Shown: piece by piece, positions 2,676 to 56,626 of the stretch
Numbering within the stretch: position 1 is the first letter of the stretch
How the letters are laid out: the number at the start of each line of letters is the position of its first letter
IMG/VR virus record: IMGVR_UViG_3300025150_000002
Coordinates: 139,522 to 203,521 of that record
From: a virus
Taxonomy: Duplodnaviria > Caudoviricetes
Length of the DNA: 64,000 bases
Direction: 5' to 3' (one strand)
Made by a program: the position numbers and the translations under genes
Notes under the pieces: generated by a model
Databases searched by the model: none
What the model was told of the DNA's origin: nothing
The model's input: only the letters and a program-made list of their open reading frames with translations

Positions 2676-4262
2676 CTACCCGTTGATCTGAGCACGGACG
2701 GCCGCAAACGGATCGTCATCATCATCACCGCTGGTGGTTTTACCCTCACCATCTACGACAGCCGAAGCCTTTCCGTGTCGCTTCGCGTAATTGTCCGCGT
2801 AGGCACTGTAGCGAACAGAAGGTGGTGAAATGATGCCCACGCCGATCAGCTGAGCCAGTCGATCGGCGTTGCAGTAAAACTGCTCGTAGTTTGGGTGTGG
2901 TCCGCCAGCCCACTTGAAGAACATCTTTGAGCGCTCGATGTTCTCGTAGTCGTCCACGAGTACCTGGATCATCTCGTAGAGCTGCTTCCGGTCGTAGCGC
3001 TTCAGGAGCTCGCTGCCCCACTTCATGTATTTCCCATCCGGGGCCTTAGCGAGACCAGCAGAAGGGAAACGGGTGAGAACCACCCTCCTGAAGTGGGTGA
3101 AGACCTGCCACGGGTTCTTCGGAACCTCGTCTACCGTCTCGGGGTCCGGGGTCGCCTCCTCGTAGATCTTCGAGGTGTCGGGTGAGATACCCTTGTCGCC
3201 GCCTGCGGAGCCTCCTACTGGGCTCCTACTGGTGACCACGTCCTTGATACCAGTTCGTGGTGTTCCCTTGCCCCTGACGCGCTCCAGACGCGCCCGGCGC
3301 TCCTCCTCTTGAGCCTTGGATGGCCTAGCCACATCGGTCTCCTTTTCTGACGCAGCGCGGCGTACAGACTCCGGTGCGGCGCGGCGTACAGACATCTGCT
3401 CTTGGTCACTTGTTGCGGTAGCGGTCGCGCCGCGCGTACGAGGGGGGACGCCCAAGGCACTCTTGTGCCTTGGTCCGTCCATCCCGTAAGGGATATCTAA
3501 GCTCTTCTCTAGAAGTTCATCTGTACCGGGGAGCAGTGGGTTGCCAGTACGGTGGCAACTGGTTGCCAGTACTACTGGCAACTGGTTGCCAGTACGGTGG
3601 CAACTGGTTGCCAGTACTACCCCCCCTAGTACTGGCAGTGGGTTGCCAGTACTAGGTGGTTCACCCCCCAAAATTACTGGCAACCCACTGCCAGTACTTG
3701 AGTCCGGCAGCCTCACGTTTGCAGCCAGTTGGGTGGCTCCATCATCCCGAGGGTCATCGCTTACGTGCGTCTCACCCTCATCGGCAGGTGTCTCCAGCGT
3801 GAACCCTCCGGTATACGTCTCGGGTCGTCCGGTCCGCCTCACGGCCTGTCGAGGTCGATAGGGACGACGCTGGAGGGTTTTCACGCCGCCCGAGGTCTCG
3901 ACGTAGGTCTTGGCGTCCAAGAGTCGGTTTGAGAGAAGCTCCTCTGGAGACATTATTGGAGGGGTCTCGTTGATGATGTAGACCGGGTAACGGTGGTCGT
4001 TGCCCACCGGCTGGATGGAGATCAACCCAGCGCGTTCGAGACTCCGTGTCGAGTTGAAGATGGTGCGCTCCGAGACCTTCATGATCCCTGCGAGGCACTG
4101 CTTGGTAAGCCTGCAGATCCTCGGCTCATTCGACTTGGTCTTCCGACAATAGGAGACCATGATCATGAATAGTCTTAGGTCGTTGCTGGTGATGTCTGGA
4201 GACCTAATGATGTCGTCAAAGACCTGCGAGAACAGGCGGGTCGGCTTCTTGTTGTCGCTCAC
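2676..4262 (-). CDS. Phage replication initiator (lambda O-like): N-terminal winged HTH, central repeat region
   Basis: N-terminal ITSNDLRLFMIM...LAGIMKVSERTIFNSTRSLERAGLI; internal DNA repeats; directly upstream of loader and helicase. Confidence 0.7.
   Translation of the reverse strand: MSDNKKPTRLFSQVFDDIIRSPDITSNDLRLFMIMVSYCRKTKSNEPRICRLTKQCLAGIMKVSERTIFNSTRSLERAGLISIQPVGNDHRYPVYIINETPPIMSPEELLSNRLLDAKTYVETSGGVKTLQRRPYRPRQAVRRTGRPETYTGGFTLETPADEGETHVSDDPRDDGATQLAANVRLPDSSTGSGLPVILGGEPPSTGNPLPVLGGVVLATSCHRTGNQLPVVLATSCHRTGNPLLPGTDELLEKSLDIPYGMDGPRHKSALGVPPRTRGATATATSDQEQMSVRRAAPESVRRAASEKETDVARPSKAQEEERRARLERVRGKGTPRTGIKDVVTSRSPVGGSAGGDKGISPDTSKIYEEATPDPETVDEVPKNPWQVFTHFRRVVLTRFPSAGLAKAPDGKYMKWGSELLKRYDRKQLYEMIQVLVDDYENIERSKMFFKWAGGPHPNYEQFYCNADRLAQLIGVGIISPPSVRYSAYADNYAKRHGKASAVVDGEGKTTSGDDDDDPFAAVRAQING
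3533..3697. repeat. Six iteron-like imperfect palindromes, TGGCA-N6-TGCCAGTAC; putative origin
   Basis: TGGCAACTGGTTGCCAGTAC x3, GCAGTGGGTTGCCAGTAC x2, one inverted copy at 3676-3697, all inside the initiator gene. Confidence 0.85.
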
Positions 4263-12278: not shown

Positions 12279-12785
12279 AAGAGCGCCGGGAGTCGAACCC
12301 GGGAGACCACCCATGGTGTCCTGTCTAAGTCGGACATGGGTGTGTAGTCGACAACCCTGAAACCAGTTAGCCAGGCAGTCTCGCATACGAGGTGCTAACG
12401 AGCAGGCGGCCCATTTGCACGACCCAACTCTCCCTCGACGTCGCTTTCATTATGAGCCCAACCAGTAACAGGTATCACCACGCCGCCACCTTACGGCGTC
12501 TCCGCTCTTGTTGATGCCAGGAACTCTCATCCTGGGGAGGCTTGACGATTTTCTAAAATCGCCACTTACCCGGACTTACACCGGTCCACCGGCCCTAGCA
12601 CTAGTGTTGCTCAAGAAACCTTCTCCCTCGTCCCCATTATCGCCCCTGACGGGGTCTATTAGTTCGAGGCATCCAGTCCCTGCACCGGTCGCTAGGGGAT
12701 CGGCACGCGGCCGTCATTCCGCGCTTACACCAACAGAGGTAGCGTAGCTCGGAAACATCCACTTCCAGTGGATTACCGCCCCACC
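12279..12785 (-). ncRNA. Candidate large structured ncRNA with tRNA-like 3' domain; 5' boundary uncertain
   Basis: 7-bp stem AAGAGCG/CGCTCTT, stem GAGAC/GTCTC, T-arm CCGGG-TTCGACT-CCCGG, many further hairpins; no convincing CDS. Confidence 0.6.
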
Positions 12786-16600: not shown

Positions 16601-17914
16601 TTCAAGGCCGGCTTTGCGGCGGGTGTCATCGATGGCGACGGGAACCTGAGTCCTCCGAGGAGCAGCAAGCCACAGGGTAAGGTGCGGTTTCACACCGCGT
16701 CCTGGCGCTTTGCATCGTGCTTCGCCAAGCTCCTCCATAGTCTTGGTATCCACGTTCGGTTGTCGACCGAGGACTACTTAGACAACGCGCACATCATGAA
16801 GTGCTCAGTCGATTCCGGCTACAATGGCGAGATCGGGCGTTTTGAGTCGCTGCGGCGGTTCGCGGACTCCGTTGCCCCGCATCTGGTCAAGCGGATGTTT
16901 CCGGTCAAGCTGATGAGCACGGATGCACGCGAGAGCATTGGACCGATCATCGTTTCCAGGGTCATCGAGATCCGCGAGCTCAGCACGGATCTGCCGGAGT
17001 CGACGTTCAACTGGCGTGTGGAGCCGCACCATCTTCTCTGGACCGCGAACACGCTGACTCACAACTGCGGAAGAGCTGGTCGTGACGGTTACGAGTCCAA
17101 CTGCTTCTTGACACAGGAGGAGCACGGCCAGTCGGCCCACTTCCTCATTGATATGAGCGTGCCGTCTATCGGGCATGTTAGGAAGGTGTGGAACGTTCTG
17201 CAGGTCATCGCGCTCGACTGGCCCGGTTGGTTCGAGGTTGATTGGCCGGATGTGGCGGCCCGAACCGGTCTGAGCCTTCCGGCTGTTCAGGCCTGCGTCA
17301 GCTGGCTTTTCACCGGGAAAATGATCGAGAAGAAGCAGAAGCGGTTGGCGTGGAAGTTCACCATTCATGACGAGTCCGACGCCAAGGCGATCAAGTACAA
17401 GCGGAAGACCCCAGAGCTCCTCGATGCGCTTCGTGGAGAGGCGATGGTCGATCAGGGGCCCGCTGTGTTCGAGCTCAAGCCAGACGTCTTGTCCGAGGTA
17501 GTTGGACAGCACTTCTCCAACTGGCAGGCCAAGCTTAGGAAGATGAACGAACTTGACATCATCCGGATCGAGGAGCCCCCGAAGGGGAGATCCAGTTACC
17601 GGTTCCTGCACGGCTCGTTCCACTTCGCCCAGGGGCAGAAGCAGTTGGAGAAGGCCCGGTCCAGTGCCTTCGAGCGGCTGGCAGCCATGCGAGACCTTCA
17701 GTCGTGTGCGGCCCACAAGCGTCGAGACTTGATCGAGGACGCGATCTCTTTGAAGCTCCCTCCCATGGAGGGCCTGGAGATCCTAGACACCGATCACACC
17801 GAGCCGGACCACACCGCCGAGCAGAAGGTCACCAAGCGACCTGTCATCAAGGCGGCGAAGCTAGCAGATGATGATCCGTTTGCCGAGGACGACGAGTTCA
17901 TCGTCCCCTTCTAG
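13646..17914 (+). CDS. recQ: RecQ-family helicase with two inteins
   Basis: HAPTG|SGKT, VDEAHAYEEWADGFRPTY, SAT, YHGGM, ATKAFGMGIDK, YAQE|CGRAGRDG. Confidence 0.92.
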   Translation: MSPIEGRIESVERLLGFQVRSYQRQALTALGQGKSVILHAPTGCHAPGQLILMHDGSTKKVEDIKKGDLLMGPDSKPRRVTRLIRGRGRMVKVHPKKGEPFVVNEDHILTLVRTGVVRTPSDGSRKRRDLGGELIDVKVKDWETWSLTQKHIHKLKRTGVTFRSRAPLPLDPYTLGIIIGDGSIKDGTPGVTTADSEIEEVLVACAERRGLYIREEVKAGNAATTYRLSSGHRKQRGRAGGTNSLTNDLRQLGLWGKGSSDKFIPGTYKVASRKSRLDLLAGLIDADGYLHHNNHVLTTASEQLAADVAFVARSLGFAAYIYTTSKRCQTGYEGDYFRVSITGDNSIIPCRLERKTASPRGQEKDPTRTGFTLEDVGEGEFYGFSLTGDGRFLLGDFTITHNSGKTVAFQGAPYVSPHPGITVILYPLRALVKDQSRRFSELGLPSVTLYGETPTTERAAIYDKILSGSTKILLTTPESFDMNRKLQDVLRQRGVSVLTVDEAHAYEEWADGFRPTYRRAGAVARSVGVKQFLLCSATLTGKGFRTACDTIGVSNWTIVQIPPLRSNLIYRDLSQPESEILCRAVRGDGLEAPGIVFFTTVKRLEETASFVETKTRRKVLRYHGGMAGKARREAQEEFMTTDTWIFATKAFGMGIDKDNIRNIIHCQLPSSVLSYAQECVHGDTPVMTLNGNRPARDIKAGDQLAGYDPVTGEVVPAVVKELYQGKTGDWLAVRTSAGDEIVVTKNHPFIVNGGEVRADQLKVGERLATLSSSAQVDRPMLTADCLIADQTFAQVEPGLIDALRDKLSPTELGQMFGLSRHHDYSSYRRGKAIKLSGLQAAGDAAGMPRQQIYSRVLALKSRSGKPVRLPLTLDDAELGWFAGIVATDGYIYRSDKSGFGSWKIKLTNTNHAIVDKFAGIVKRFGLHCHSYIRTHRSDALSKRPAHCAEVSSPVLCDLLNHLGIHDGRKSTTVSCSETALSAGKLFKAGFAAGVIDGDGNLSPPRSSKPQGKVRFHTASWRFASCFAKLLHSLGIHVRLSTEDYLDNAHIMKCSVDSGYNGEIGRFESLRRFADSVAPHLVKRMFPVKLMSTDARESIGPIIVSRVIEIRELSTDLPESTFNWRVEPHHLLWTANTLTHNCGRAGRDGYESNCFLTQEEHGQSAHFLIDMSVPSIGHVRKVWNVLQVIALDWPGWFEVDWPDVAARTGLSLPAVQACVSWLFTGKMIEKKQKRLAWKFTIHDESDAKAIKYKRKTPELLDALRGEAMVDQGPAVFELKPDVLSEVVGQHFSNWQAKLRKMNELDIIRIEEPPKGRSSYRFLHGSFHFAQGQKQLEKARSSAFERLAAMRDLQSCAAHKRRDLIEDAISLKLPPMEGLEILDTDHTEPDHTAEQKVTKRPVIKAAKLADDDPFAEDDEFIVPF
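13775..14851 (+). mobile_element. LAGLIDADG intein 1 (359 aa) in RecQ motif I
   Basis: CHAPGQ...FTITHN|S; LGIIIGDGS and LLAGLIDADG. Confidence 0.95.
15680..17065 (+). mobile_element. LAGLIDADG intein 2 (462 aa) in RecQ motif VI
   Basis: CVHGDTPV...TLTHN|C; WFAGIVATDG and FAAGVIDGDG. Confidence 0.95.
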
Positions 17915-17920
17915 TACAGA

Positions 17921-17953
17921 GAGACAGCCACGACCTGTGGTCGTGGCTGTCTC
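17921..17953. terminator. Bidirectional terminator hairpin between convergent genes
   Basis: GAGACAGCCACGACC-TGT-GGTCGTGGCTGTCTC, perfect 15-bp stem. Confidence 0.8.
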
Positions 17954-17973
17954 TTCCACGTTAGCGGTGTTGG

Positions 17974-18564
17974 CTAGTTAGCCGACACGTCGGCCGAGTT
18001 GTCGGCCGACACGCTCGACGCGGTAGCCTCGGCGAAGTAGTGCAGGCCACGACGCTTTCCCTCGGTCCGGATCTCACCAGCCTCGCGGGCCGAGTTGAGG
18101 ATGCGACGGATCACAGCCTGGGGCAGGCTTACCGCCCCCTCGATGTCCGTCATGTTGCAGCCGGCGTTGCTGCGGACGAAAGAGAGCACCACGTCCGGCC
18201 TGACTGGCTTCCGCTTGGTCTCCTTGACCAAGGCGATCTTGGGGGAGTCCCCCTTCTTGGCCACCTTCTTGGCAACCTTCTTGGTCACCTTCTTGGCAAC
18301 CTTCTTGGCCACCTTGGCCTTCTTCTCGACCTTCTTCTTGGTCGACGGCTTGGTGCGAGGCGCGTTCTTGGTGGTAGTAACCGACCCGCCGCCTACGGCG
18401 ATGGCAGTGGCCCGTTGGGCCACGTAGGTTGCACCTGCCTTGAACACCTTGGGCATCTGCTTCGCCATCTCTGGCGTCGCCGTGAAGACAACGTATCCGT
18501 TCGAACTACTCACTGAGAATCTCCTCCTTTGAGGGACTTGATTACGGGTGCTGGAAATCAACAC
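17974..18564 (-). CDS. Histone H1-like Lys/Ala-repeat protein with C-terminal winged HTH
   Basis: KKVAKKVAKKVTKKVAKKVAKK; VLSFVRSNAG...IRTEGKRRGLHYF. Confidence 0.7.
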   Translation of the reverse strand: MLISSTRNQVPQRRRFSVSSSNGYVVFTATPEMAKQMPKVFKAGATYVAQRATAIAVGGGSVTTTKNAPRTKPSTKKKVEKKAKVAKKVAKKVTKKVAKKVAKKGDSPKIALVKETKRKPVRPDVVLSFVRSNAGCNMTDIEGAVSLPQAVIRRILNSAREAGEIRTEGKRRGLHYFAEATASSVSADNSADVSAN

Positions 18565-18742: not shown

Positions 18743-19267
18743 CTACCTGGTTGACCTCTTCGAGGTTCTTGAGGGTCGCGACGACCTCTTGGTTGACCGC
18801 TTGGGCCGCACCTGCATCTGCTTCGTGCGGGCGTAGCTGATACGCTTCTTGTCCTCCCGAAGGGATCGAATCTCGTTGAGTTGACCCTCGATGAAGGTGG
18901 CCCACTTGTCACCACGGTCGCCCCGGTCTCTGGCGATCAGGAACTCGGTCCACAGGACGCGGGCCACATCCGAGAGCGGTTGGCCGCGCTCCACGGCGTA
19001 GGCCCTCAACTTATCGGCGATCACCTCGGGCACGGCTGCGCCGAGATGCGCCAGCGGTCTCGGGAAGAGGCGCCCCAAGGGGGCTGTCGCTATCTGCTTG
19101 TCACTGGCCTCGTGGATCTCAAGCCGCACAAGCACCGTTACGGTCCTACCACGGGCCTCCTCAGACCGCCTGGCGCGGTTAATCGCAGCTCCGTAGTGGT
19201 CGAGCTCGGATTGGGTAACCTCGATTGAGGTGGACTCCAGTGAGTAGTTGAGGTGCATCTCGTTCAT
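18743..19267 (-). CDS. Hypothetical protein, possible ribbon-helix-helix domain
   Basis: IADKLRAYAVERGQPLSDVARVLW; basic tail. Confidence 0.55.
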   Translation of the reverse strand: MNEMHLNYSLESTSIEVTQSELDHYGAAINRARRSEEARGRTVTVLVRLEIHEASDKQIATAPLGRLFPRPLAHLGAAVPEVIADKLRAYAVERGQPLSDVARVLWTEFLIARDRGDRGDKWATFIEGQLNEIRSLREDKKRISYARTKQMQVRPKRSTKRSSRPSRTSKRSTR

Positions 19268-19449
19268 CGTTCCTTTGTTGATTTCGGGCTAATCTGACGG
19301 TTTTATACCGCCGATGGTGTTGGGATCGCCTAATGACCGGGTGGATTATCTGGTTTTTCGGCTGGACTTTAGGCACCAACTCCTTTCAGCACAAGAACTT
19401 GAGAAATCTCCGGAAAGGCTTGTTATCCAATCCGAGATCGCTATAACAG

Positions 19450-19780
19450 GGGCACTCAGCAGTTGCTGGGGGTCGTTTCGCCTCTTACGAGTGGTGTGCG
19501 GTCGTGACTGGGACGGACTTCAGCTTCGGCTAAAGTAGACAACGGTTGAGGGTGACGCCCAGGAGTCCGAGGTAATGCTCACTCCGAGGAAACGAGCTCG
19601 CTGAGGGTAAGGCCCTCAGAGGCGACACCAAGGCGGGGATGCGGCGCAGGGACCGGGTAATGCCGACCAGGTGGTAAGCGACTAGCGCTACGAATTACAC
19701 TCTCAAAGTGTGGAGCGTAGAGCCGAAGGCAACTGATGGGATACGGAGAGAGGCGGATCAGGGAAACCTGATCCGCCTCG
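19450..19780 (+). ncRNA. Candidate structured ncRNA in divergent intergenic region
   Basis: UUCG hairpin (19518-19536), CTGAGGG/CCCTCAG stem, two GTAATG-loop hairpins, 13-bp GAAA-capped terminal stem (19750-19779), upstream TATAAC. Confidence 0.55.
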
Positions 19781-19858
19781 CTTCATTTTGCTCAAACGGT
19801 GGGAGTCTGGTAGCATCACTTAGCAGAGCGATGTGGTTGTAAGACCCGTAGGAGCAAA

Positions 19859-20443
19859 GTGATGTCTGGATTTGCAGTCAGCGGCGAAGAGTCCGACCAG
19901 GTATTGGTTCCGTCCAGCCACTCGACTATCAACCACACAGGAATCCCCGGCGTACCAGCTGCCGAGACCTTCACCAGCGGTGTTCACGCCTCTACTGACC
20001 ACACGGGCATAACCGGCGTCAACAACTTCGACTCGACACTACACGCATTGACGGACCATTCTGTTATTCCTGGTGCAAACGGTGGCCTGGCCGTGGGTAC
20101 GTCCACGACGGTGCCCGCCAACACCCTCACCGCCGACGGCCACATGCTGATGATCTCCTTGCGCGGTACGGGCACTTTAGGGATGTCCAACGTCACGCTC
20201 AACGGGCAGGTCATCGCGCAGTCCGTGGCCTCTCTAGGCGGGGACCCTTGGGGTGGCACCCTCCTCGTCACCCGCACCGGTGGCTCGTCAGGCTCGGCGA
20301 CAGGCGCAGTAAGCGACGCCAACAACGGGCGAAGCTGCGTGGGCGTTGGCGGCGTGGGGAGCCTGAACTGGGGCGGCGCGCAAGTCATCGCCGTCAACGG
20401 CGGTGCGACCATCAGCGCCGTCGCCCTGGTCGCGTTCCGCTAG
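19859..20443 (+). CDS. Gly/Ser/Thr-rich protein, possibly virion-associated
   Basis: Three imperfect repeats TINHTGIPGV / STDHTGITGV / LTDHSVIPGA. Confidence 0.55.
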   Translation: MMSGFAVSGEESDQVLVPSSHSTINHTGIPGVPAAETFTSGVHASTDHTGITGVNNFDSTLHALTDHSVIPGANGGLAVGTSTTVPANTLTADGHMLMISLRGTGTLGMSNVTLNGQVIAQSVASLGGDPWGGTLLVTRTGGSSGSATGAVSDANNGRSCVGVGGVGSLNWGGAQVIAVNGGATISAVALVAFR

Positions 20444-20980: not shown

Positions 20981-21343
20981 ATGGACCTCAAGACGCGAAA
21001 GTCGGTTATTCGTAAGCTGAGGGGCATGCTGGTGCGCTGGCCTCCGGCTTCAGTTGATGAGGCCTATGACGTAGGTCGCCTCGCCGCCTGCCTACTCCCA
21101 GACTGGCTGGAGTCTGAGCACAGGACGTTTGATGAGTTCCTGTACGAGCATGGATGGAGGTCGAACGTCGCTGAGCGCGCAGCCTGGCTCGCGCACAACT
21201 ACTACGAGGTGCCGTCACGGGGTATCTGGCGCCAATTGGACTTCTACCAGATAACCCGTGCGGCTCAACTCACTCAGGTTGATTGTCGCGAGCGGTTGCT
21301 CGCGTGCGGTATCAACGTGCTTGATTTGATGGCGATGATCTAG
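20981..21343 (+). CDS. Hypothetical protein with LDxL tag
   Basis: Ends GINVLDLMAMI; GGTAGAAC 7 nt upstream. Confidence 0.7.
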   Translation: MDLKTRKSVIRKLRGMLVRWPPASVDEAYDVGRLAACLLPDWLESEHRTFDEFLYEHGWRSNVAERAAWLAHNYYEVPSRGIWRQLDFYQITRAAQLTQVDCRERLLACGINVLDLMAMI

Positions 21344-22425
21344 ACGGCGGCCGCGACACCGATGCAGACTGTCTGGAGGATCCGAGCGCATACGCGATAC
21401 GGATCACAGTTGGCTCCGGGCCGCCGATCTTCGATGTATCCGTAGCCATGCTGGGCTACTTGGGCTGGAATGCGAATTGAGCAGCCACGATCGCTGTCCC
21501 CGACCTTGAACGTGTTGATGTCGCACGTCTCGTGCTTGCCGGTCAGGCGCTGCTCCAGGCCGAAGCCGTAGTCCTTGATGTGCTCATCGTGAACCTCCGA
21601 CATCGCCTTGATCGCCGAGGCGATGGCTGACTTGCCAGTGCCGGGATCGCGCATCTCCTTCGTGGAGAAGTTAGTGTGCGCGCCCGCGCCGTTCCAATCG
21701 CCCTGCTCAGGCTTGCAGCTGAGCGTGGCTGAGATGCCGTAGTCCTCACCTAGACGGAACAGAAGCCAGCGCGCGAAGATCAGGTGGTCCGAGACAGTGA
21801 GAGGGTCAGCCGACTCATTCGTGAAGCCGGGGCGATGGCCTATCTGAAACTCCCACTGACCGAGCATTACCTCGGCGTTTATCCCGTAGATCATCAGGCC
21901 GGCTCTCATGCAGGCGCTGAGGTGGTCCTCGACCATCCTACGGCCTGCGACCTCGTCAGCTCCGACGCCGCAGTAGTAGGGGCCCTGGGCGCGGTGGGGG
22001 ATCCCCCTCTCCGGCCAGCCGAGAGGGCGGCCCGAGTCGATGTTGTAGAGCGTGTATTCCTGCTCGAAGCCGAACCAAGGCTCATGAACCTCGGCGACCA
22101 TCATGATGTCCCGCAAACGACTACGAGTATTGGTCTCGTGCGGCAAGTCCTCTGGAGTGGTGACCTCACACAGGACGAGGAAGTTGGCACCACCTCGGAT
22201 AGGGTCGTTCACCACTCGCACAGGTGTAAGGACCTGGTCCGAGTTGGATGTCGTTGCCTGATTTGTGGACGAACCATCGAATCCCCAGACCGGAAAGGAC
22301 TCGTGGTTGATTGGGCTGGTCTGAGCGTCAGGCAGGTTGACCACTCGGGTCTTTGAACGTAGGTTCTGGACAGGGATGTTCACGGAGCCACCGTCCATCC
22401 AGATGTATTCAGCTCGCACGTGCAT
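21340..22425 (-). CDS. glnII: Glutamine synthetase type II
   Basis: AEYIWMDG, WGFDGSST, EQEYTL, QGPYYCGVG, NAEVMLGQWEFQIG, DWNGAGAHTNFST, RLTGKHET, EDRRPGANCDPY. Confidence 0.95.
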   Translation of the reverse strand: MHVRAEYIWMDGGSVNIPVQNLRSKTRVVNLPDAQTSPINHESFPVWGFDGSSTNQATTSNSDQVLTPVRVVNDPIRGGANFLVLCEVTTPEDLPHETNTRSRLRDIMMVAEVHEPWFGFEQEYTLYNIDSGRPLGWPERGIPHRAQGPYYCGVGADEVAGRRMVEDHLSACMRAGLMIYGINAEVMLGQWEFQIGHRPGFTNESADPLTVSDHLIFARWLLFRLGEDYGISATLSCKPEQGDWNGAGAHTNFSTKEMRDPGTGKSAIASAIKAMSEVHDEHIKDYGFGLEQRLTGKHETCDINTFKVGDSDRGCSIRIPAQVAQHGYGYIEDRRPGANCDPYRVCARILQTVCIGVAAAV

Positions 22426-26636: not shown

Positions 26637-26971
26637 ATGTCAGCGAGGTCATCGAGGATCATCGCCTCTCGTAGACGAGGCAAGACAACGGTTGTGACAA
26701 GTTGCCTGTCGATGAAGCCGTCACTCAGCTCGTAGGCCTGCGTGTAGGCTCTGAGACGTCCATACCCATGGGGGCCGGTAAGGACGTCTATGATGATGCC
26801 CGGCCGCCACATTATCTTGAGTCCAGCTACACGAAGGCCTGTCGAGTTAACACGGGGCAGGGCGGTCAGGATAGGGCCGAGCAGGCGCATTGCACGGGCG
26901 TCGAGCTCCTCGACGAGCTGCCTCTGAAGCTCGTAGTCCTCTGGGGTTCCATCCTGATCGTCATCCCACAT
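26633..26971 (-). CDS. Hypothetical protein with LDxL tag
   Basis: Ends REAMILDDLADI; GGTAGAAC 7 nt upstream. Confidence 0.7.
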   Translation of the reverse strand: MWDDDQDGTPEDYELQRQLVEELDARAMRLLGPILTALPRVNSTGLRVAGLKIMWRPGIIIDVLTGPHGYGRLRAYTQAYELSDGFIDRQLVTTVVLPRLREAMILDDLADI

Positions 26972-27005
26972 GACAGCGTTCTACCTGGATCGGGTAGAAC
27001 GCTGT

Positions 27006-27557
27006 ATGCCTACGATGACGATCATGCGCGGTGGACCGGGTTCCGGAAAGAGCTACTACGTGGCCCAGCGGTGCTTCACGACCGGTGTCATCCCGACCGT
27101 CTGTTCGGCCGATGAGTTCTTCATCAACGATAACGGCGTCTACGACTTCGACCCGAAGTGGTTGGGCCGCGCCCACGGCGCTTGTTTGAAGAAGTGCGTC
27201 GAGTCGATGATGGCTCGACTCGATGTGATCGTCGACAACACCAACTCCAAGGCGGAGGAGTTGATCCCTTACCTCGCGCTCTGCCAGGCCTTCAGCTACA
27301 GCTGCGTCGTGGTTCGGGTGCTCTGCAACCCTGAGCTCGCGTGGCAGCGTCAAACGCACGCGGTTCCCCGAGACAAGTTCGACGACATCCACACGACCGT
27401 CCGTCAGCAGCAGGTACCCAAGATGTATCGCGGCGCTCATTGGTTGATGATCAGGGACGTTGGTGAGGTTGAGCTTCCTTGCAACTGTGGGGTCTCGATG
27501 GGACTGCGGTCCGACCACGAGGGTGAGTGCCAGGCCGCCTACCGAAGGGACCGGTGA
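27006..27557 (+). CDS. AAA_33/polynucleotide-kinase-like P-loop protein
   Basis: MRGGPGSGKS, CSADEFF, AHGAC, IVDNTN. Confidence 0.8.
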   Translation: MPTMTIMRGGPGSGKSYYVAQRCFTTGVIPTVCSADEFFINDNGVYDFDPKWLGRAHGACLKKCVESMMARLDVIVDNTNSKAEELIPYLALCQAFSYSCVVVRVLCNPELAWQRQTHAVPRDKFDDIHTTVRQQQVPKMYRGAHWLMIRDVGEVELPCNCGVSMGLRSDHEGECQAAYRRDR

Positions 27558-30680: not shown

Positions 30681-30989
30681 ATGACGACCGAGACGATTAC
30701 CGAGATCGAGACTAACACCCGTCTCATTCCACCTTGGAATGTGGTTCTACTCAACGACGACGACCATTCCTACGACTATGTCATCGTCATGCTTTACGCC
30801 GTATTCGGCTTTCAGCCGGAGAAGGGTGTGATGCACGCTAAGGAGGTGGACTCGGTCGGTAGAACCATCCTGATCACCACCAGTCGAGAGCATGCTGAGC
30901 TCAAACAGGAACAATGCCATAATTTCGGACCAGACCCCCTTGTTCCACGCTGCAAGGGTCCGATGACTGTGATCATTGAGCCGGCGTGA
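30681..30989 (+). CDS. clpS: ClpS N-end-rule adaptor
   Basis: PPWNVVLLNDDDHSYDYV, EVDSVGR, EHAELK, IIEPA. Confidence 0.9.
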   Translation: MTTETITEIETNTRLIPPWNVVLLNDDDHSYDYVIVMLYAVFGFQPEKGVMHAKEVDSVGRTILITTSREHAELKQEQCHNFGPDPLVPRCKGPMTVIIEPA

Positions 30990-34101: not shown

Positions 34102-34628
34102 CAAGGGAAAGCGACGGACGAGAAAGGTACTGGCGGCAGGTCAGACAAATCGCCGATGAGCACGATGTCTCCATTCCGGAGGCGCGGGCCATGTGGTCTC
34201 GCCTCTTCAAGCCAGGTGGGATCAAGAAGATGGTGCTGGCCCTCTCAGTTAGCTCATCACCAGCGATGTCGACAGTCTGCCCGTTCTGCCGAACTGAGCT
34301 ACCAGTCTTACATCAACACGAGGGTGCGTGTGGCCGCTGTGGATCGAGTGACCACCCCGAGCCGGGCGATGTTGACTGTTCACCCGAGCCGGTGTGGAGC
34401 TGCTCGAACTGTAGGACCACCATGCACCAGGAGTGCTACGACGAGCTCGGTCGCTGCTCAACACTAGGATGTCGATCGTCTAGGATTGTGGCCCGTCTGC
34501 GGCCCGCGCCTGGTTATGAGCGAGACTACGCGGGCCTGCCCAGCCGTGGTGTCCTACTGTCCTTGGCGATGGTTGGTGTCGCGGGGCTTCTTCTCATCGT
34601 CCTCGCTGTTATTAGGCTGTTCTGGTAG
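34098..34628 (+). CDS. Prokaryotic RING-like protein with C-terminal TM helix
   Basis: CPFC...CSNCRTTMHQECYDELGRCSTLGC. Confidence 0.65.
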   Translation: MTRESDGRERYWRQVRQIADEHDVSIPEARAMWSRLFKPGGIKKMVLALSVSSSPAMSTVCPFCRTELPVLHQHEGACGRCGSSDHPEPGDVDCSPEPVWSCSNCRTTMHQECYDELGRCSTLGCRSSRIVARLRPAPGYERDYAGLPSRGVLLSLAMVGVAGLLLIVLAVIRLFW

Positions 34629-35622
34629 TTGCCAGGTCGACCGCTTCGGGCGTCTTGATGACCCGGAAGAACTCAGGTCGCACGACCGTGATCTTGTGAC
34701 GCGTTCGGATCGCGCGCCGCAGCGACATGCCGTTGGGGTCAACGAAGTTCGGCGTCACAGTCACCATCGTATAGGGGCTGTAGACGATGCCTGTATCAAG
34801 CATGCCGCCCTGGTACCAGGTCATCAGGTGGCTCTTCGGAAAGAGCGGGTCCAGGTAGACGGTCTTACTTGTAGGCCCCTCGCCTAGAGTCCCCACCTTC
34901 TGGACTTGACCGTTGCTGATCGGAACGCTGATGCCAAGTTTGACCAGCGTTTCCTCATTTCCGATGACCCTGTTGGCAGGCATTCGCTGGGTACGCTGGT
35001 GGACACGGTTCGACGTACGAGATAGCTCTTCTAGCAGATCACAGTCTTCTGATACCAGATCTGTGTTGCTCGGGAGCAGGGCTATGTTGAGCATCGTGCC
35101 CAGGATTTCGCGCGTGATCTCAGTCAGGAACTCCTCGACCGCTAGGTCGAGCACACTGATGTCGCCTATGAGAGATTTGACTCTTCTGGTTTCGGCACAG
35201 ATGTCCTGGTCGGCGATTTTCAACCTGATCTCAGGAACCGTGACCTGGGTCGGCTTACCGGTCGTCTGGTTGGTGACGGTTATCTCAACCGTCCCACCAG
35301 TCTTCGGCTGATACCACAAAATGATACCGATCGGCCCGAGCATTGGCTGCGTGCTGCAGAGGTCAGGCAGGGGGTGCGCCTGCAGCTGAGCTTTGAGGGC
35401 GTCCCCGATTTTCTCGTGCCAGGTGTCGGGAAAGACTAGACCTCTCGTCTCCTCAGCCAACTGCTTGAAGTGCTTGTCCTGGTTCTCCAGGACGGCGGCG
35501 ATGAGATTCGAGCGATCGTTGTCGTTTTCAAGACCCCACTTTGCGCGCAAGCGCTCCAGGGTCGCTAGAGTTGCGGTGGGCGGGTTGGTTGCCATGTTAC
35601 CTCCAGTGATGGATGGTACCAC
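34612..35622 (-). CDS. Divergent T4 gp23-like major capsid paralogue (start probably 35595)
   Basis: AAVLENQ, STQPMLGPIG, AETRRVK, EITREIL, VYLDP, DTGIVYSPY, RTRH. Confidence 0.75.
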   Translation of the reverse strand: MVPSITGGNMATNPPTATLATLERLRAKWGLENDNDRSNLIAAVLENQDKHFKQLAEETRGLVFPDTWHEKIGDALKAQLQAHPLPDLCSTQPMLGPIGIILWYQPKTGGTVEITVTNQTTGKPTQVTVPEIRLKIADQDICAETRRVKSLIGDISVLDLAVEEFLTEITREILGTMLNIALLPSNTDLVSEDCDLLEELSRTSNRVHQRTQRMPANRVIGNEETLVKLGISVPISNGQVQKVGTLGEGPTSKTVYLDPLFPKSHLMTWYQGGMLDTGIVYSPYTMVTVTPNFVDPNGMSLRRAIRTRHKITVVRPEFFRVIKTPEAVDLATTRTA

Positions 35623-41840: not shown

Positions 41841-42538
41841 TACAGGAGCCGCAGACTGACGGGGAACTCCAGGTCCCCCATCATGTGTGGGTGCTTCCAC
41901 ACTTCCAGAGTTGGCTGCAGGCGCAGAAGGGGGCCGGGAACCGACTTGATGGCTTCAAGTCGGTCTTCCTGTTCCCAGACAGCGGTAAGCCTTTTTTCTG
42001 GGCGGCCCACGTCAACGTCTTCATCGCCTCAGAGAACCGGAACAAGGTCAACGAGGTGGTGATTTCGCGGCCCGACATCATGCACATTGTCCTGCTCCAC
42101 CGTCCGCTTAGGTCGACGGACAAGATCAGGGCCGTGATGGTCCGCGAGTTTCGATCTCCAGCGTCTACGTCAAACGGGTTTATCCTGGAGACGCCTGGTG
42201 GGTCGTCGCTCAAGGGAGATGACCCCTTCGGTACCGCCGTCGCGGAGCTCGAAGAGGAGACCGGTCTGCGGATCAGCCCTGACAGGATCGTTCCTGTCGG
42301 AACACGTCAGCTGATGGGCACGATGTCGGCCCACAACGCCCACGTATACGCGGTCCAGCTCAATGACGAGGACATGGCGGCGGTCATGGACCAACTCGGC
42401 AAGCCTCACAGCAACGAGGCCGACTCAGAAAGAACGTACGTCGAGGTCCACGACGTGTCAGGTCTCTTGCGTGACCCTCTAACCGATTGGTCCACGCTGG
42501 GTATGATCGGCGCCGCCATTGAGGCTCTAGGGCTGTAA
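41738..42538 (+). CDS. Nudix hydrolase (start probably near 41837)
   Basis: ETPGGSS...TAVAELEEETGL. Confidence 0.75.
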   Translation: MDEGGREALLLLQEPRPEGQRLGAYGSSTTGVCLIQEPQTDGELQVPHHVWVLPHFQSWLQAQKGAGNRLDGFKSVFLFPDSGKPFFWAAHVNVFIASENRNKVNEVVISRPDIMHIVLLHRPLRSTDKIRAVMVREFRSPASTSNGFILETPGGSSLKGDDPFGTAVAELEEETGLRISPDRIVPVGTRQLMGTMSAHNAHVYAVQLNDEDMAAVMDQLGKPHSNEADSERTYVEVHDVSGLLRDPLTDWSTLGMIGAAIEALGL

Positions 42539-42579
42539 TTCACTCCTGTAGCCCCGAAGTGGGCTTCTGACGTCCGTGG

Positions 42580-42612
42580 GAAGAGGCCGGGGCTAATAGC
42601 CCCGGCCTCTTC
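42580..42612 (+). terminator. Intrinsic terminator
   Basis: GAAGAGGCCGGGGCT-AAT-AGCCCCGGCCTCTTC followed by TTT. Confidence 0.75.
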
Positions 42613-42674
42613 TTTCGTGTACAGCTCGATGCATCGGCCGTCGTCTCCGTGTGCGCCAGAGGTAGAACGACACC

Positions 42675-56350: not shown

Positions 56351-56626
56351 ATGATCCCAGCTGAGGATTGGAAGGCGGTGAACCTACCAGGATTTCGTAC
56401 CGGCAAGGAACCTCGCCGGTTTCAGTGGCGGTTCAAGGACTTCAGGCGGGCGATGCAAGGCAAACGTCTAAAGCACGGTCGTAATGTCACCCATGACGAC
56501 AAGCTCGTCATGGGTGACATGGAGATGATGCACGGAGGTCGTTACTGGCCGACCACGGACGGAGGCCTGATCGCGCTGCCCTACGACTCGAAGAAGTTCG
56601 ACTTCAAGGAGTGGGTGGAGGAGTGA
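56351..56626 (+). CDS. Hypothetical protein
   Basis: In + strand run. Confidence 0.5.
   Translation: MIPAEDWKAVNLPGFRTGKEPRRFQWRFKDFRRAMQGKRLKHGRNVTHDDKLVMGDMEMMHGGRYWPTTDGGLIALPYDSKKFDFKEWVEE

What the first reader, a model, noticed from the sequence alone, without database searches (positions are those of the whole stretch)
19450..19780. Second large structured RNA candidate
Seen: a non-coding stretch after TATAAC (19442) with ACTTCAGC-TTCG-GCTAAAGT, GGAGT/ACTCC enclosing GAG-GTAATG-CTC, CTGAGGG/CCCTCAG, CGG-GTAATG-CCG, CTACG/CGTAG, GCC-GAA-GGC and a terminal GAGGCGGATCAGG-GAAA-CCTGATCCGCCTC. The repeated GTAATG loop and the UUCG and GAAA tetraloops point to a folded RNA rather than a simple terminator. 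I could not match it to RNase P, 6S, group I/II introns or common riboswitches by eye.
Basis: seen in the sequence. Interest (0 to 1): 0.62.

Follow-up and report, generated by a model that had tools for sequence, protein, structure and literature searches.

The report
Uncatalogued folded RNA in jumbo phages
This stretch is very probably the gene for a folded, non-coding RNA of about 335 bases, with its own promoter and terminator, shared by one group of uncultured giant bacterial viruses; it matches no catalogued RNA family I could search, and its job is still unknown.

Summary
Confirmed and extended. The segment is a self-contained RNA gene in a 203-kb T4-like phage: promoter (19420-19447), inferred start ~19454, a ~290-nt body whose ends pair, and a 13-14-bp GNRA hairpin with a U-rich tail (to ~19789). 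I found six more full-length homologues (55-84% identical; one close pair 93%), two partial ones and a 5' fragment, all beside the same divergent gene. The consensus is a rod with two three-way junctions and a four-way head: 88 pairs, 87% of cells paired, 40 pairs with compensatory change (0/500 shuffles; the model came from these sequences). G-U outnumbers A-C 111:19, fixing the strand; no ORF is conserved. A second, mutually exclusive set of 5' hairpins is also conserved and looks like a co-transcriptional intermediate. A GUNAYR hexaloop module recurs up to three times. No Rfam, phage, plasmid or sampled cellular match; defining motifs of RNase P, SRP, tRNA and introns were not found. Best guess: a trans-acting RNA binding a protein through its fold. 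Expression and function are untested. The scan noted this same stretch twice, never on other DNA.

The parts
19420..19447 (+). Promoter of the RNA: -35 (19420-19425), 16-bp spacer, -10 TATAAC (19442-19447)
   Evidence: TTG-type -35 box, exactly 16 bp, then TATAA(C/A) in 9 of 9 loci; the same -10 box stands in other intergenic gaps of this phage. Activity inferred.
19454..19789 (+). Whole predicted RNA, about 335 nt; start inferred 7 nt after the -10 box, end in the U-rich tail
   Evidence: Conservation starts at the -10 box and ends after the last hairpin; ends not mapped experimentally.
19455..19478 (+). 5' strands of P1 (19455-19457, 19460-19467) and P2 (19471-19478); alternatively hairpin H1 (19455-19460/19465-19470)
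   Evidence: P1 pairs with 19728-19740: 88% of cells paired, 2 double changes; P(P1) 0.74-1.0 in seven full-length copies. P2 partner 19676-19683. H1 94% paired, mostly invariant.
19474..19500 (+). 5' strands of P3/P3b; alternatively hairpin H2 capped by a tetraloop (UACG here; UUCG, CACG, CUUG and others in homologues)
   Evidence: P3b 19492-19499/19622-19630: 94% paired, 3 double changes. H2: 94% paired, 3 double changes. The two are mutually exclusive.
19506..19547 (+). P4 arm: 4-bp stem, conserved purine-rich internal loop (GGACGG opposite AGANAAG), UUCG-type hairpin
   Evidence: Helices 97% and 83% paired, 2 and 5 double changes; invariant unpaired loop purines.
19550..19599 (+). P5 arm: stem with an invariant bulged A (19555) beside CG/CG, upper stem, 5'-side bulge, 3-bp stem and first GUNAYR hexaloop (19572-19577)
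   Evidence: The loop differs in the L130/L132 subgroup.
19601..19619 (+). P6: 7-bp hairpin with NRAGN pentaloop
   Evidence: 5 of 7 pairs with double change.
19643..19675 (+). P7 arm with the most conserved element: 3-bp stem plus GUAAUG hexaloop (19654-19665)
   Evidence: 100% paired, one G-C to A-U double change; loop the same in 7 of 8 copies, one substitution in the eighth; its AUG lies 204-209 nt from the start in all copies but opens no conserved ORF.
19683..19722 (+). P8: variable-length arm; in L126 it carries a third hexaloop hairpin
   Evidence: Base helix 4 of 5 pairs with double change in alignment columns; 17 to about 45 nt long in homologues.
19723..19740 (+). 3' strand of the end-closing helix P1, with a conserved GAA/AAA internal-loop strand
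19749..19789 (+). 3' hairpin (13-14 bp, GNRA loop) plus U-rich tail: probable intrinsic terminator, possibly also a docking loop
   Evidence: Terminator-like; 98% paired, 6 double changes; forms with probability 1.0 in all seven copies; tail U-rich in three copies, weaker (UUCUUCAC) in four.
19788..19816 (+). Separate promoter of the downstream gene (-35 19788-19793, 17 bp, -10 TAGCAT 19811-19816); context, not part of the RNA
   Evidence: A similar -10 box is present in homologues and in L124/L136, which lack the RNA.
18743..19309 (-). Divergent 174-aa gene of unknown family and its promoter box (19302-19309); constant neighbour, not shown to be a partner
   Evidence: 24 relatives; no Pfam hit; ribbon-helix-helix only as a weak lead (score 0.86); fold search inconclusive. 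Also present in phages that lack the RNA at this site.

Best explanation
A free-standing, single-copy phage gene for a ~335-nt trans-acting structured RNA of a previously uncatalogued class. Shown by sequence comparison: promoter, conserved nested fold, 3' hairpin, strand, no conserved ORF. Inferred: RNA polymerase makes it from its own promoter; while it grows, hairpins H1 and H2 hold the 5' strands; once the 3' partners appear it snaps into the rod with a compact four-way head; the terminator sets the 3' end. Guessed function: the folded RNA presents its repeated hexaloop modules and purine-rich internal loops to a protein (host or phage) and acts as decoy or scaffold during infection. About 0.9 that it is a real structured RNA gene, about 0.45 that protein binding is how it works.
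For: Homologues at 55-84% identity plus one found after the model was built (113.5 bits, 74 of 86 pairs kept). 40 of 88 pairs with double change against 18.5 in shuffles and 12-15 in slid controls. G-U 111 vs A-C 19; forward fold 26-40 kcal/mol below the reverse complement. Promoter with fixed 16-bp spacer in 9 of 9. Rod lower in energy than the local fold in 6 of 6; H1 dominates most short transcripts and is replaced by P1 at 290 nt in three of three tested; such conserved transient 5' structures are reported for RNase P and SRP RNA (PMC3695514). Independence of neighbours: downstream gene varies and has its own promoter; the terminator always forms. The hexaloop module occurs up to three times per RNA, a pattern typical of repeated binding sites (own knowledge); 32 invariant positions are unpaired in the model.
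Against: The structure was derived from the same eight sequences, which are related, so the shuffle counts are not probabilities; the late homologue is 93% identical to L127, a weak hold-out. In this window's own sequence the energy minimum differs from the consensus in the head domain (consensus-constrained -137.9 vs -151.0; P3b probability near 0 in three copies). No partner protein co-occurs specifically: the divergent gene is also in phages without the RNA at this site. The first hexaloop is replaced in two copies. Nothing ties the loops to a protein rather than to tertiary RNA contacts.
Confidence: 0.45

Rival explanations
1. A ribozyme or other RNA-only catalyst of a new class, for example one that processes this phage's tRNA-like RNAs.
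For: Invariant unpaired purines, an invariant bulged A and bulged G in the head; single copy; most large bacterial ncRNAs of known function are catalytic (PMC10861870); the phage carries a tRNA-Ser and other tRNA-like elements.
Against: No RNase P, group I or group II core motif in any copy; no conserved pseudoknot of 4 or more Watson-Crick pairs between loops; it interrupts no gene; sequence conservation is modest; the neighbouring double-tRNA RNA does not co-occur.
Confidence: 0.12
2. An RNA-only oligomer like GOLLD, ROOL or OLE, in which the hexaloops and the GNRA hairpin dock into neighbouring copies.
For: Phage-borne, ornate, unknown function, as GOLLD and ROOL, which form cages (PMC12286853); repeated loop modules and GNRA in 7 of 7 terminal hairpins.
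Against: About half their size or less; no Rfam similarity; no conserved loop-loop complementarity; the one palindrome (UCGA, head junction) is broken in 3 of 9 copies.
Confidence: 0.12
3. A two-state switch (riboswitch-like leader or attenuator) in which the alternative 5' fold controls read-through into the downstream virion-type gene.
For: Both folds are conserved: the local fold has 94% of cells paired and 4 double changes; consensus energy -17.4 vs -7.0 for column shuffles, 0/1000; layout promoter-RNA-terminator-gene.
Against: The terminator forms with probability 1.0 in all copies; the longest conserved competing helix is 5 bp; the downstream gene has its own promoter, kept in phages without the RNA, and differs between phages; single-sequence z-scores of the 5' fold are mostly weak.
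Confidence: 0.08
4. A mimic of the ribosomal GTPase-associated centre that decoys a ribosome-directed host factor.
For: GUAAUA is a known rRNA hexaloop (10.1101/354332); from memory it caps 23S helix 44 on a 3-bp stem after a 5'-side bulge, as here; the phage encodes a bL12 C-terminal domain.
Against: Closing pair G-C instead of C-G, last base mostly G, no helix-43 equivalent; no rRNA hit in Rfam scans; the resemblance is recalled, not tested.
Confidence: 0.04
5. A DNA-level signal (origin, packaging or recombination site), a coding remnant, or chance folding.
For: The DNA fold is also significant (z -5.2); neighbours include a RecQ-like helicase and a histone-like gene; no transcript evidence.
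Against: G-U/A-C asymmetry, RNA-type tetraloops, promoter and terminator; no ORF conserved in length or frame; no GC-skew turn at this site.
Confidence: 0.07

Closest known systems
GOLLD, ROOL and OLE ornate RNAs (PMC12286853)
   Same: Large, highly paired non-coding RNAs of unknown function; GOLLD and ROOL are phage/prophage-encoded.
   Different: Much shorter (~335 nt against ~600-800+), no sequence or model match, no pseudoknot detected, not beside a tRNA island, found in one phage clade only.
raiA motif RNA (PMC10861870)
   Same: Single-copy, trans-acting, 200-300-nt class with conserved junction nucleotides.
   Different: raiA is chromosomal, widespread and has two pseudoknots; no Rfam match here.
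Long (Alu-containing) SRP RNA and RNase P RNA
   Same: Similar size, paired 5' and 3' ends, long rod with distal multi-helix domain, conserved transient 5' structure (PMC3695514).
   Different: No SRP helix-8 motif, no RNase P CR-I/CR-V or P4 pseudoknot; no Rfam hit.
CsrB/CsrC/RsmZ protein-sponge RNAs
   Same: Own promoter and terminator, repeated loop module: the closest working analogy for the best explanation.
   Different: Loops are GUNAYR, not GGA; GGA count equals chance; the fold is a nested rod; only one copy gives a weak CsrC score (20.6 bits vs cut-off 61).
Candidate viral structured RNAs of Fremin et al. 2023 (PMC10690425)
   Same: Intergenic, covarying phage RNAs from IMG/VR.
   Different: Those are 29-151 nt and needed three IMG/VR regions; I found two IMG/VR records with this RNA. 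Their supplement is not held, so a fragment there cannot be excluded.

Membership tests
Any Rfam 15 family | Score at or above the family's gathering threshold | tested here: not met
   best on the RNA strand are CsrC 20.6/61 bits in one copy and gntR-DTE 23.8/63.6 in another.
RNase P RNA | CR-I and CR-V motifs forming the P4 pseudoknot | tested here: not met
   0 of 9 copies by pattern; no Rfam hit.
RNase P RNA | Cleaves pre-tRNA | not testable with these tools
   Needs an in-vitro assay.
SRP RNA | Helix 8 with symmetric loop and GNRA cap | tested here: not met
   0 of 9 copies.
6S RNA | ~180-200-nt unbranched rod with large central bubble | tested here: not met
   Consensus has three junctions and no large single-stranded bubble; no Rfam hit.
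tRNA / tmRNA / Y RNA | T-loop and acceptor-like domain; Ro60 partner for Y RNA | tested here: not met
   ARAGORN negative here; T-loop pattern 0 of 9; no TROVE gene in G000 or G006, both incomplete.
Group I / group II intron | Catalytic core motifs and interruption of a host gene | tested here: not met
   Patterns absent; free-standing gene; Rfam does detect a real group I intron elsewhere in this genome.
Retron / DGR / DRT ncRNA | Linked reverse transcriptase | tested here: not met
   No PF00078 in G000, 89% complete; none among the flanking genes.
CsrB/CsrC | Many GGA motifs in hairpin loops | tested here: not met
   GGA counts 6-11 vs 5.5-10 expected; apical loops carry other sequences.
Riboswitch / attenuator | Alternative fold competing with the terminator or ribosome site of a fixed downstream gene | tested here: not met
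   Terminator probability 1.0; separate downstream promoter; variable downstream gene.
GOLLD/ROOL-type RNA cages | Homo-oligomer formation | not testable with these tools
   Needs mass photometry or cryo-EM; no conserved kissing loops seen.
Stable non-coding RNA gene (general) | Discrete transcript in infected cells | not testable with these tools
Stable non-coding RNA gene (general) | Covarying, strand-specific secondary structure without conserved ORF | tested here: met

The most novel reading that the evidence does not exclude
A new class of phage RNA machine (catalyst, self-assembling particle or true two-state switch) whose two mutually exclusive conserved folds and repeated hexaloop modules carry out a function not yet known for any RNA, on a par with GOLLD, ROOL or raiA.
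Probability: 0.15. Interest if true: 0.85.

Novelty: new variant of a known kind. Interest (0 to 1): 0.52.

Why it matters
Structured RNAs of 300 nt or more are rare, and those whose function is known are mostly catalysts or core machines (PMC10861870). This adds a candidate class small enough to make in vitro, with nine natural variants, a defined core and two conserved alternative folds, so folding pathway, oligomer state, catalysis and partners can be tested directly. This one phage would then carry two unrelated large orphan RNAs within 7 kb that occur independently in relatives. The narrow range and the lack of function or expression data limit the score.

Tried and rejected
Loose DNA patterns in viral contigs gave chance hits only, apart from the known L120 record (screened in 17, 31, 50, 63, 88). 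No match in annotated phages or plasmids. 120 GTDB pattern hits scored at most 25 bits. The core model found nothing in 453 sampled genomes of the phyla around three handles, but only 21 candidates per genome were scored, so this is weak. No second copy in G000. A 14-nt identity with the glutamine synthetase mRNA (21862-21875, minus strand) is chance level (E 0.8) and the hairpin is not kept in L120. Peptide from the hexaloop AUG: 5 to 92 codons, not conserved. Partnership with the RNA at 12279-12785: L124 has that RNA but no model hit for this one in the 13 kb held; L120 and L125 have this one but no detectable copy of that one at its site. The divergent protein: low-confidence model, best Z 4.7, inconclusive. 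GCC-GAA-GGC hairpin rejected. A 3-bp pseudoknot in P4 and a palindromic dimer site lack covariation. Host not identified. Literature searches found no description.

Full report
Setting. The window is the last 64 kb of a 203,521-base virus record, 89% complete, with T4-like baseplate and capsid domains. The finding lies in a 590-bp gap between a divergent 174-aa gene (18743-19267, minus) and a 194-aa gene (19859-20443, plus).

Observation. The stretch folds at z -4.98, but much of that comes from the last hairpin: without it z is -2.4 here and -1.3 to -6.0 in homologues. The GCC-GAA-GGC hairpin is not real as a conserved element. Rfam has no match at gathering score and only noise at E up to 10, here and in six homologous loci.

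Homologues. DNA searches failed, so I followed the divergent protein. It has 24 relatives. Their contigs gave full-length copies in L120, L127, L130, L132, L135 and L302, partial copies in L125 and L126, and promoter plus 5' end in L172. All lie at the same site and orientation. Pairwise identity is 55-84% among the first six sequences; L302 is 93% identical to L127. The spacer upstream of the promoter is near shuffled level in most pairs. Four more distant or rearranged phages lack it at this site: L124 and L136 by sequence, two more by gene spacing only. The protein tree does not settle gain against loss, and whole genomes of these phages were not available.

Anatomy. A TTG-type -35 box, 16 bp and TATAA(C/A) precede the RNA in 9 of 9 loci; the start is inferred at about 19454. 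The consensus is a nested rod. P1 joins the ends (19455-19467 with 19728-19740). A three-way junction carries the variable arm P8. After P2 a second three-way junction carries P7, capped by a 3-bp stem and GUAAUG loop. P3 and P3b lead to a four-way head: P4 with a purine-rich internal loop and a UUCG-type cap, P5 with an invariant bulged A and a second hexaloop of the same type, and P6 with a pentaloop. L126 has a third such hairpin. A 13-14-bp GNRA hairpin and U-rich tail close the gene. The next gene has its own promoter, also seen in phages without the RNA.

Strength of the structure. On the sequence-only alignment 87% of 643 cells pair and 40 of 88 pairs show change on both sides, against 18.5 in shuffles and 12-15 in slid controls. 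The model came from these related sequences, so this is not a p-value. G-U pairs outnumber A-C 111 to 19, which fixes the plus strand. No reading frame is conserved. A core covariance model built before L302 was fetched scores it at 113.5 bits. Weak points: P2 is poorly aligned (69% paired), and in this window's sequence the unconstrained energy minimum folds the head differently.

Second fold. The first 50 nt can form two local hairpins that exclude P1, P2, P3 and P3b. They are 94% paired over eight sequences with four double changes; the consensus energy is -17.4 against -7.0 for column shuffles. The H2 loop moves among tetraloops such as UACG, UUCG, CACG and CUUG, the last with its usual G-C closing pair (the stability of such loops is my own knowledge). 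The rod is more stable in all six full-length copies tested, and growing transcripts switch from H1 to P1 by 290 nt. This matches transient structures that guard 5' strands of long-range helices in RNase P and SRP RNA (PMC3695514). It does not look like an attenuator: the terminator forms with probability 1.0 in every copy.

Mechanism. Shown: a conserved, strand-specific, non-coding fold with promoter and terminator motifs. Inferred: an independent stable transcript with a guided folding path. Guessed: it works in trans by presenting repeated hexaloop modules and purine-rich loops to a protein, as decoy or scaffold (0.45). Rivals are a new ribozyme (0.12), an RNA-only oligomer like GOLLD/ROOL (0.12; PMC12286853), a cis switch (0.08), a DNA element or artefact (0.07) and mimicry of the ribosomal GTPase centre (0.04). 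No partner could be named: no reverse transcriptase, no Ro60, the divergent protein also occurs without the RNA, and the neighbouring large RNA at 12279-12785 is distributed independently.

Comparison. It resembles the orphan ornate RNAs in kind and the Csr sponges in proposed working, but fails the tested defining features of RNase P, SRP, 6S, tRNA/tmRNA, introns, retrons, CsrB and riboswitches. Paper searches found no description; the 10,006 viral candidates of PMC10690425 are at most 151 nt and their supplement could not be checked. Earlier notes of this scan cover only this same stretch.

Verdict. Very probably a real, uncatalogued ~335-nt structured RNA gene of one jumbo-phage clade (about 0.9), function open, expression untested. 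Interest 0.52.

Noticed in passing
L174-L180: G000 82295-82633, 80507-81439, 77706-77982: The phage encodes a ribosomal protein bL12 C-terminal domain and an RlaP-family nucleotidyltransferase and carries a group I intron.
   Followed up: no
window 34615-35622 (minus): A 336-aa ORF with a Gp23 major-capsid domain far from the structural gene block; possibly a second capsid-like gene.
   Followed up: no
window 12279-12785: The other large RNA has a detectable homologue in L124 but no room at the same site in L120 and L125, where the flanking genes abut.
   Followed up: partly
L127:2790-3045 and L302:2080-2345: An extra ~230-bp stretch between the RNA's terminator and the next promoter, about 95% identical in both; no significant fold on either strand.
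   Followed up: yes
window 3530-3700: Very strong folding signal (z -8.5) from repeated, partly inverted words inside the 528-aa ORF 2676-4262; looks like iteron-type repeats in a replication-initiator-like gene.
   Followed up: no
window 17901-18020, 21201-21320, 26901-27020, 42501-42620, 56401-56520: Further strong local folds (z -5 to -8.5), probably terminators between genes.
   Followed up: no
window 21340-22425 (minus): Type II glutamine synthetase, 53% identical to actinobacterial GlnII; its motif reads NAEVML in this phage and L120, where from memory most GSII have NAEVMP.
   Followed up: partly
intergenic sites listed: Nine of 13 intergenic TATAA boxes end in C, mostly after GG or GC; this may be the promoter consensus of the host or the phage.
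   Followed up: partly
L120, L130, L132, L135, directly after the 3' hairpin: Four copies end the tail with a conserved CACAUCCA, absent from this window and L127/L302; a possible CCA-like 3' end in one subgroup.
   Followed up: no
window 30681-30986 and G000 121364-121912: ORFs that look by eye like ClpS and peptide deformylase; not checked against a family library.
   Followed up: no
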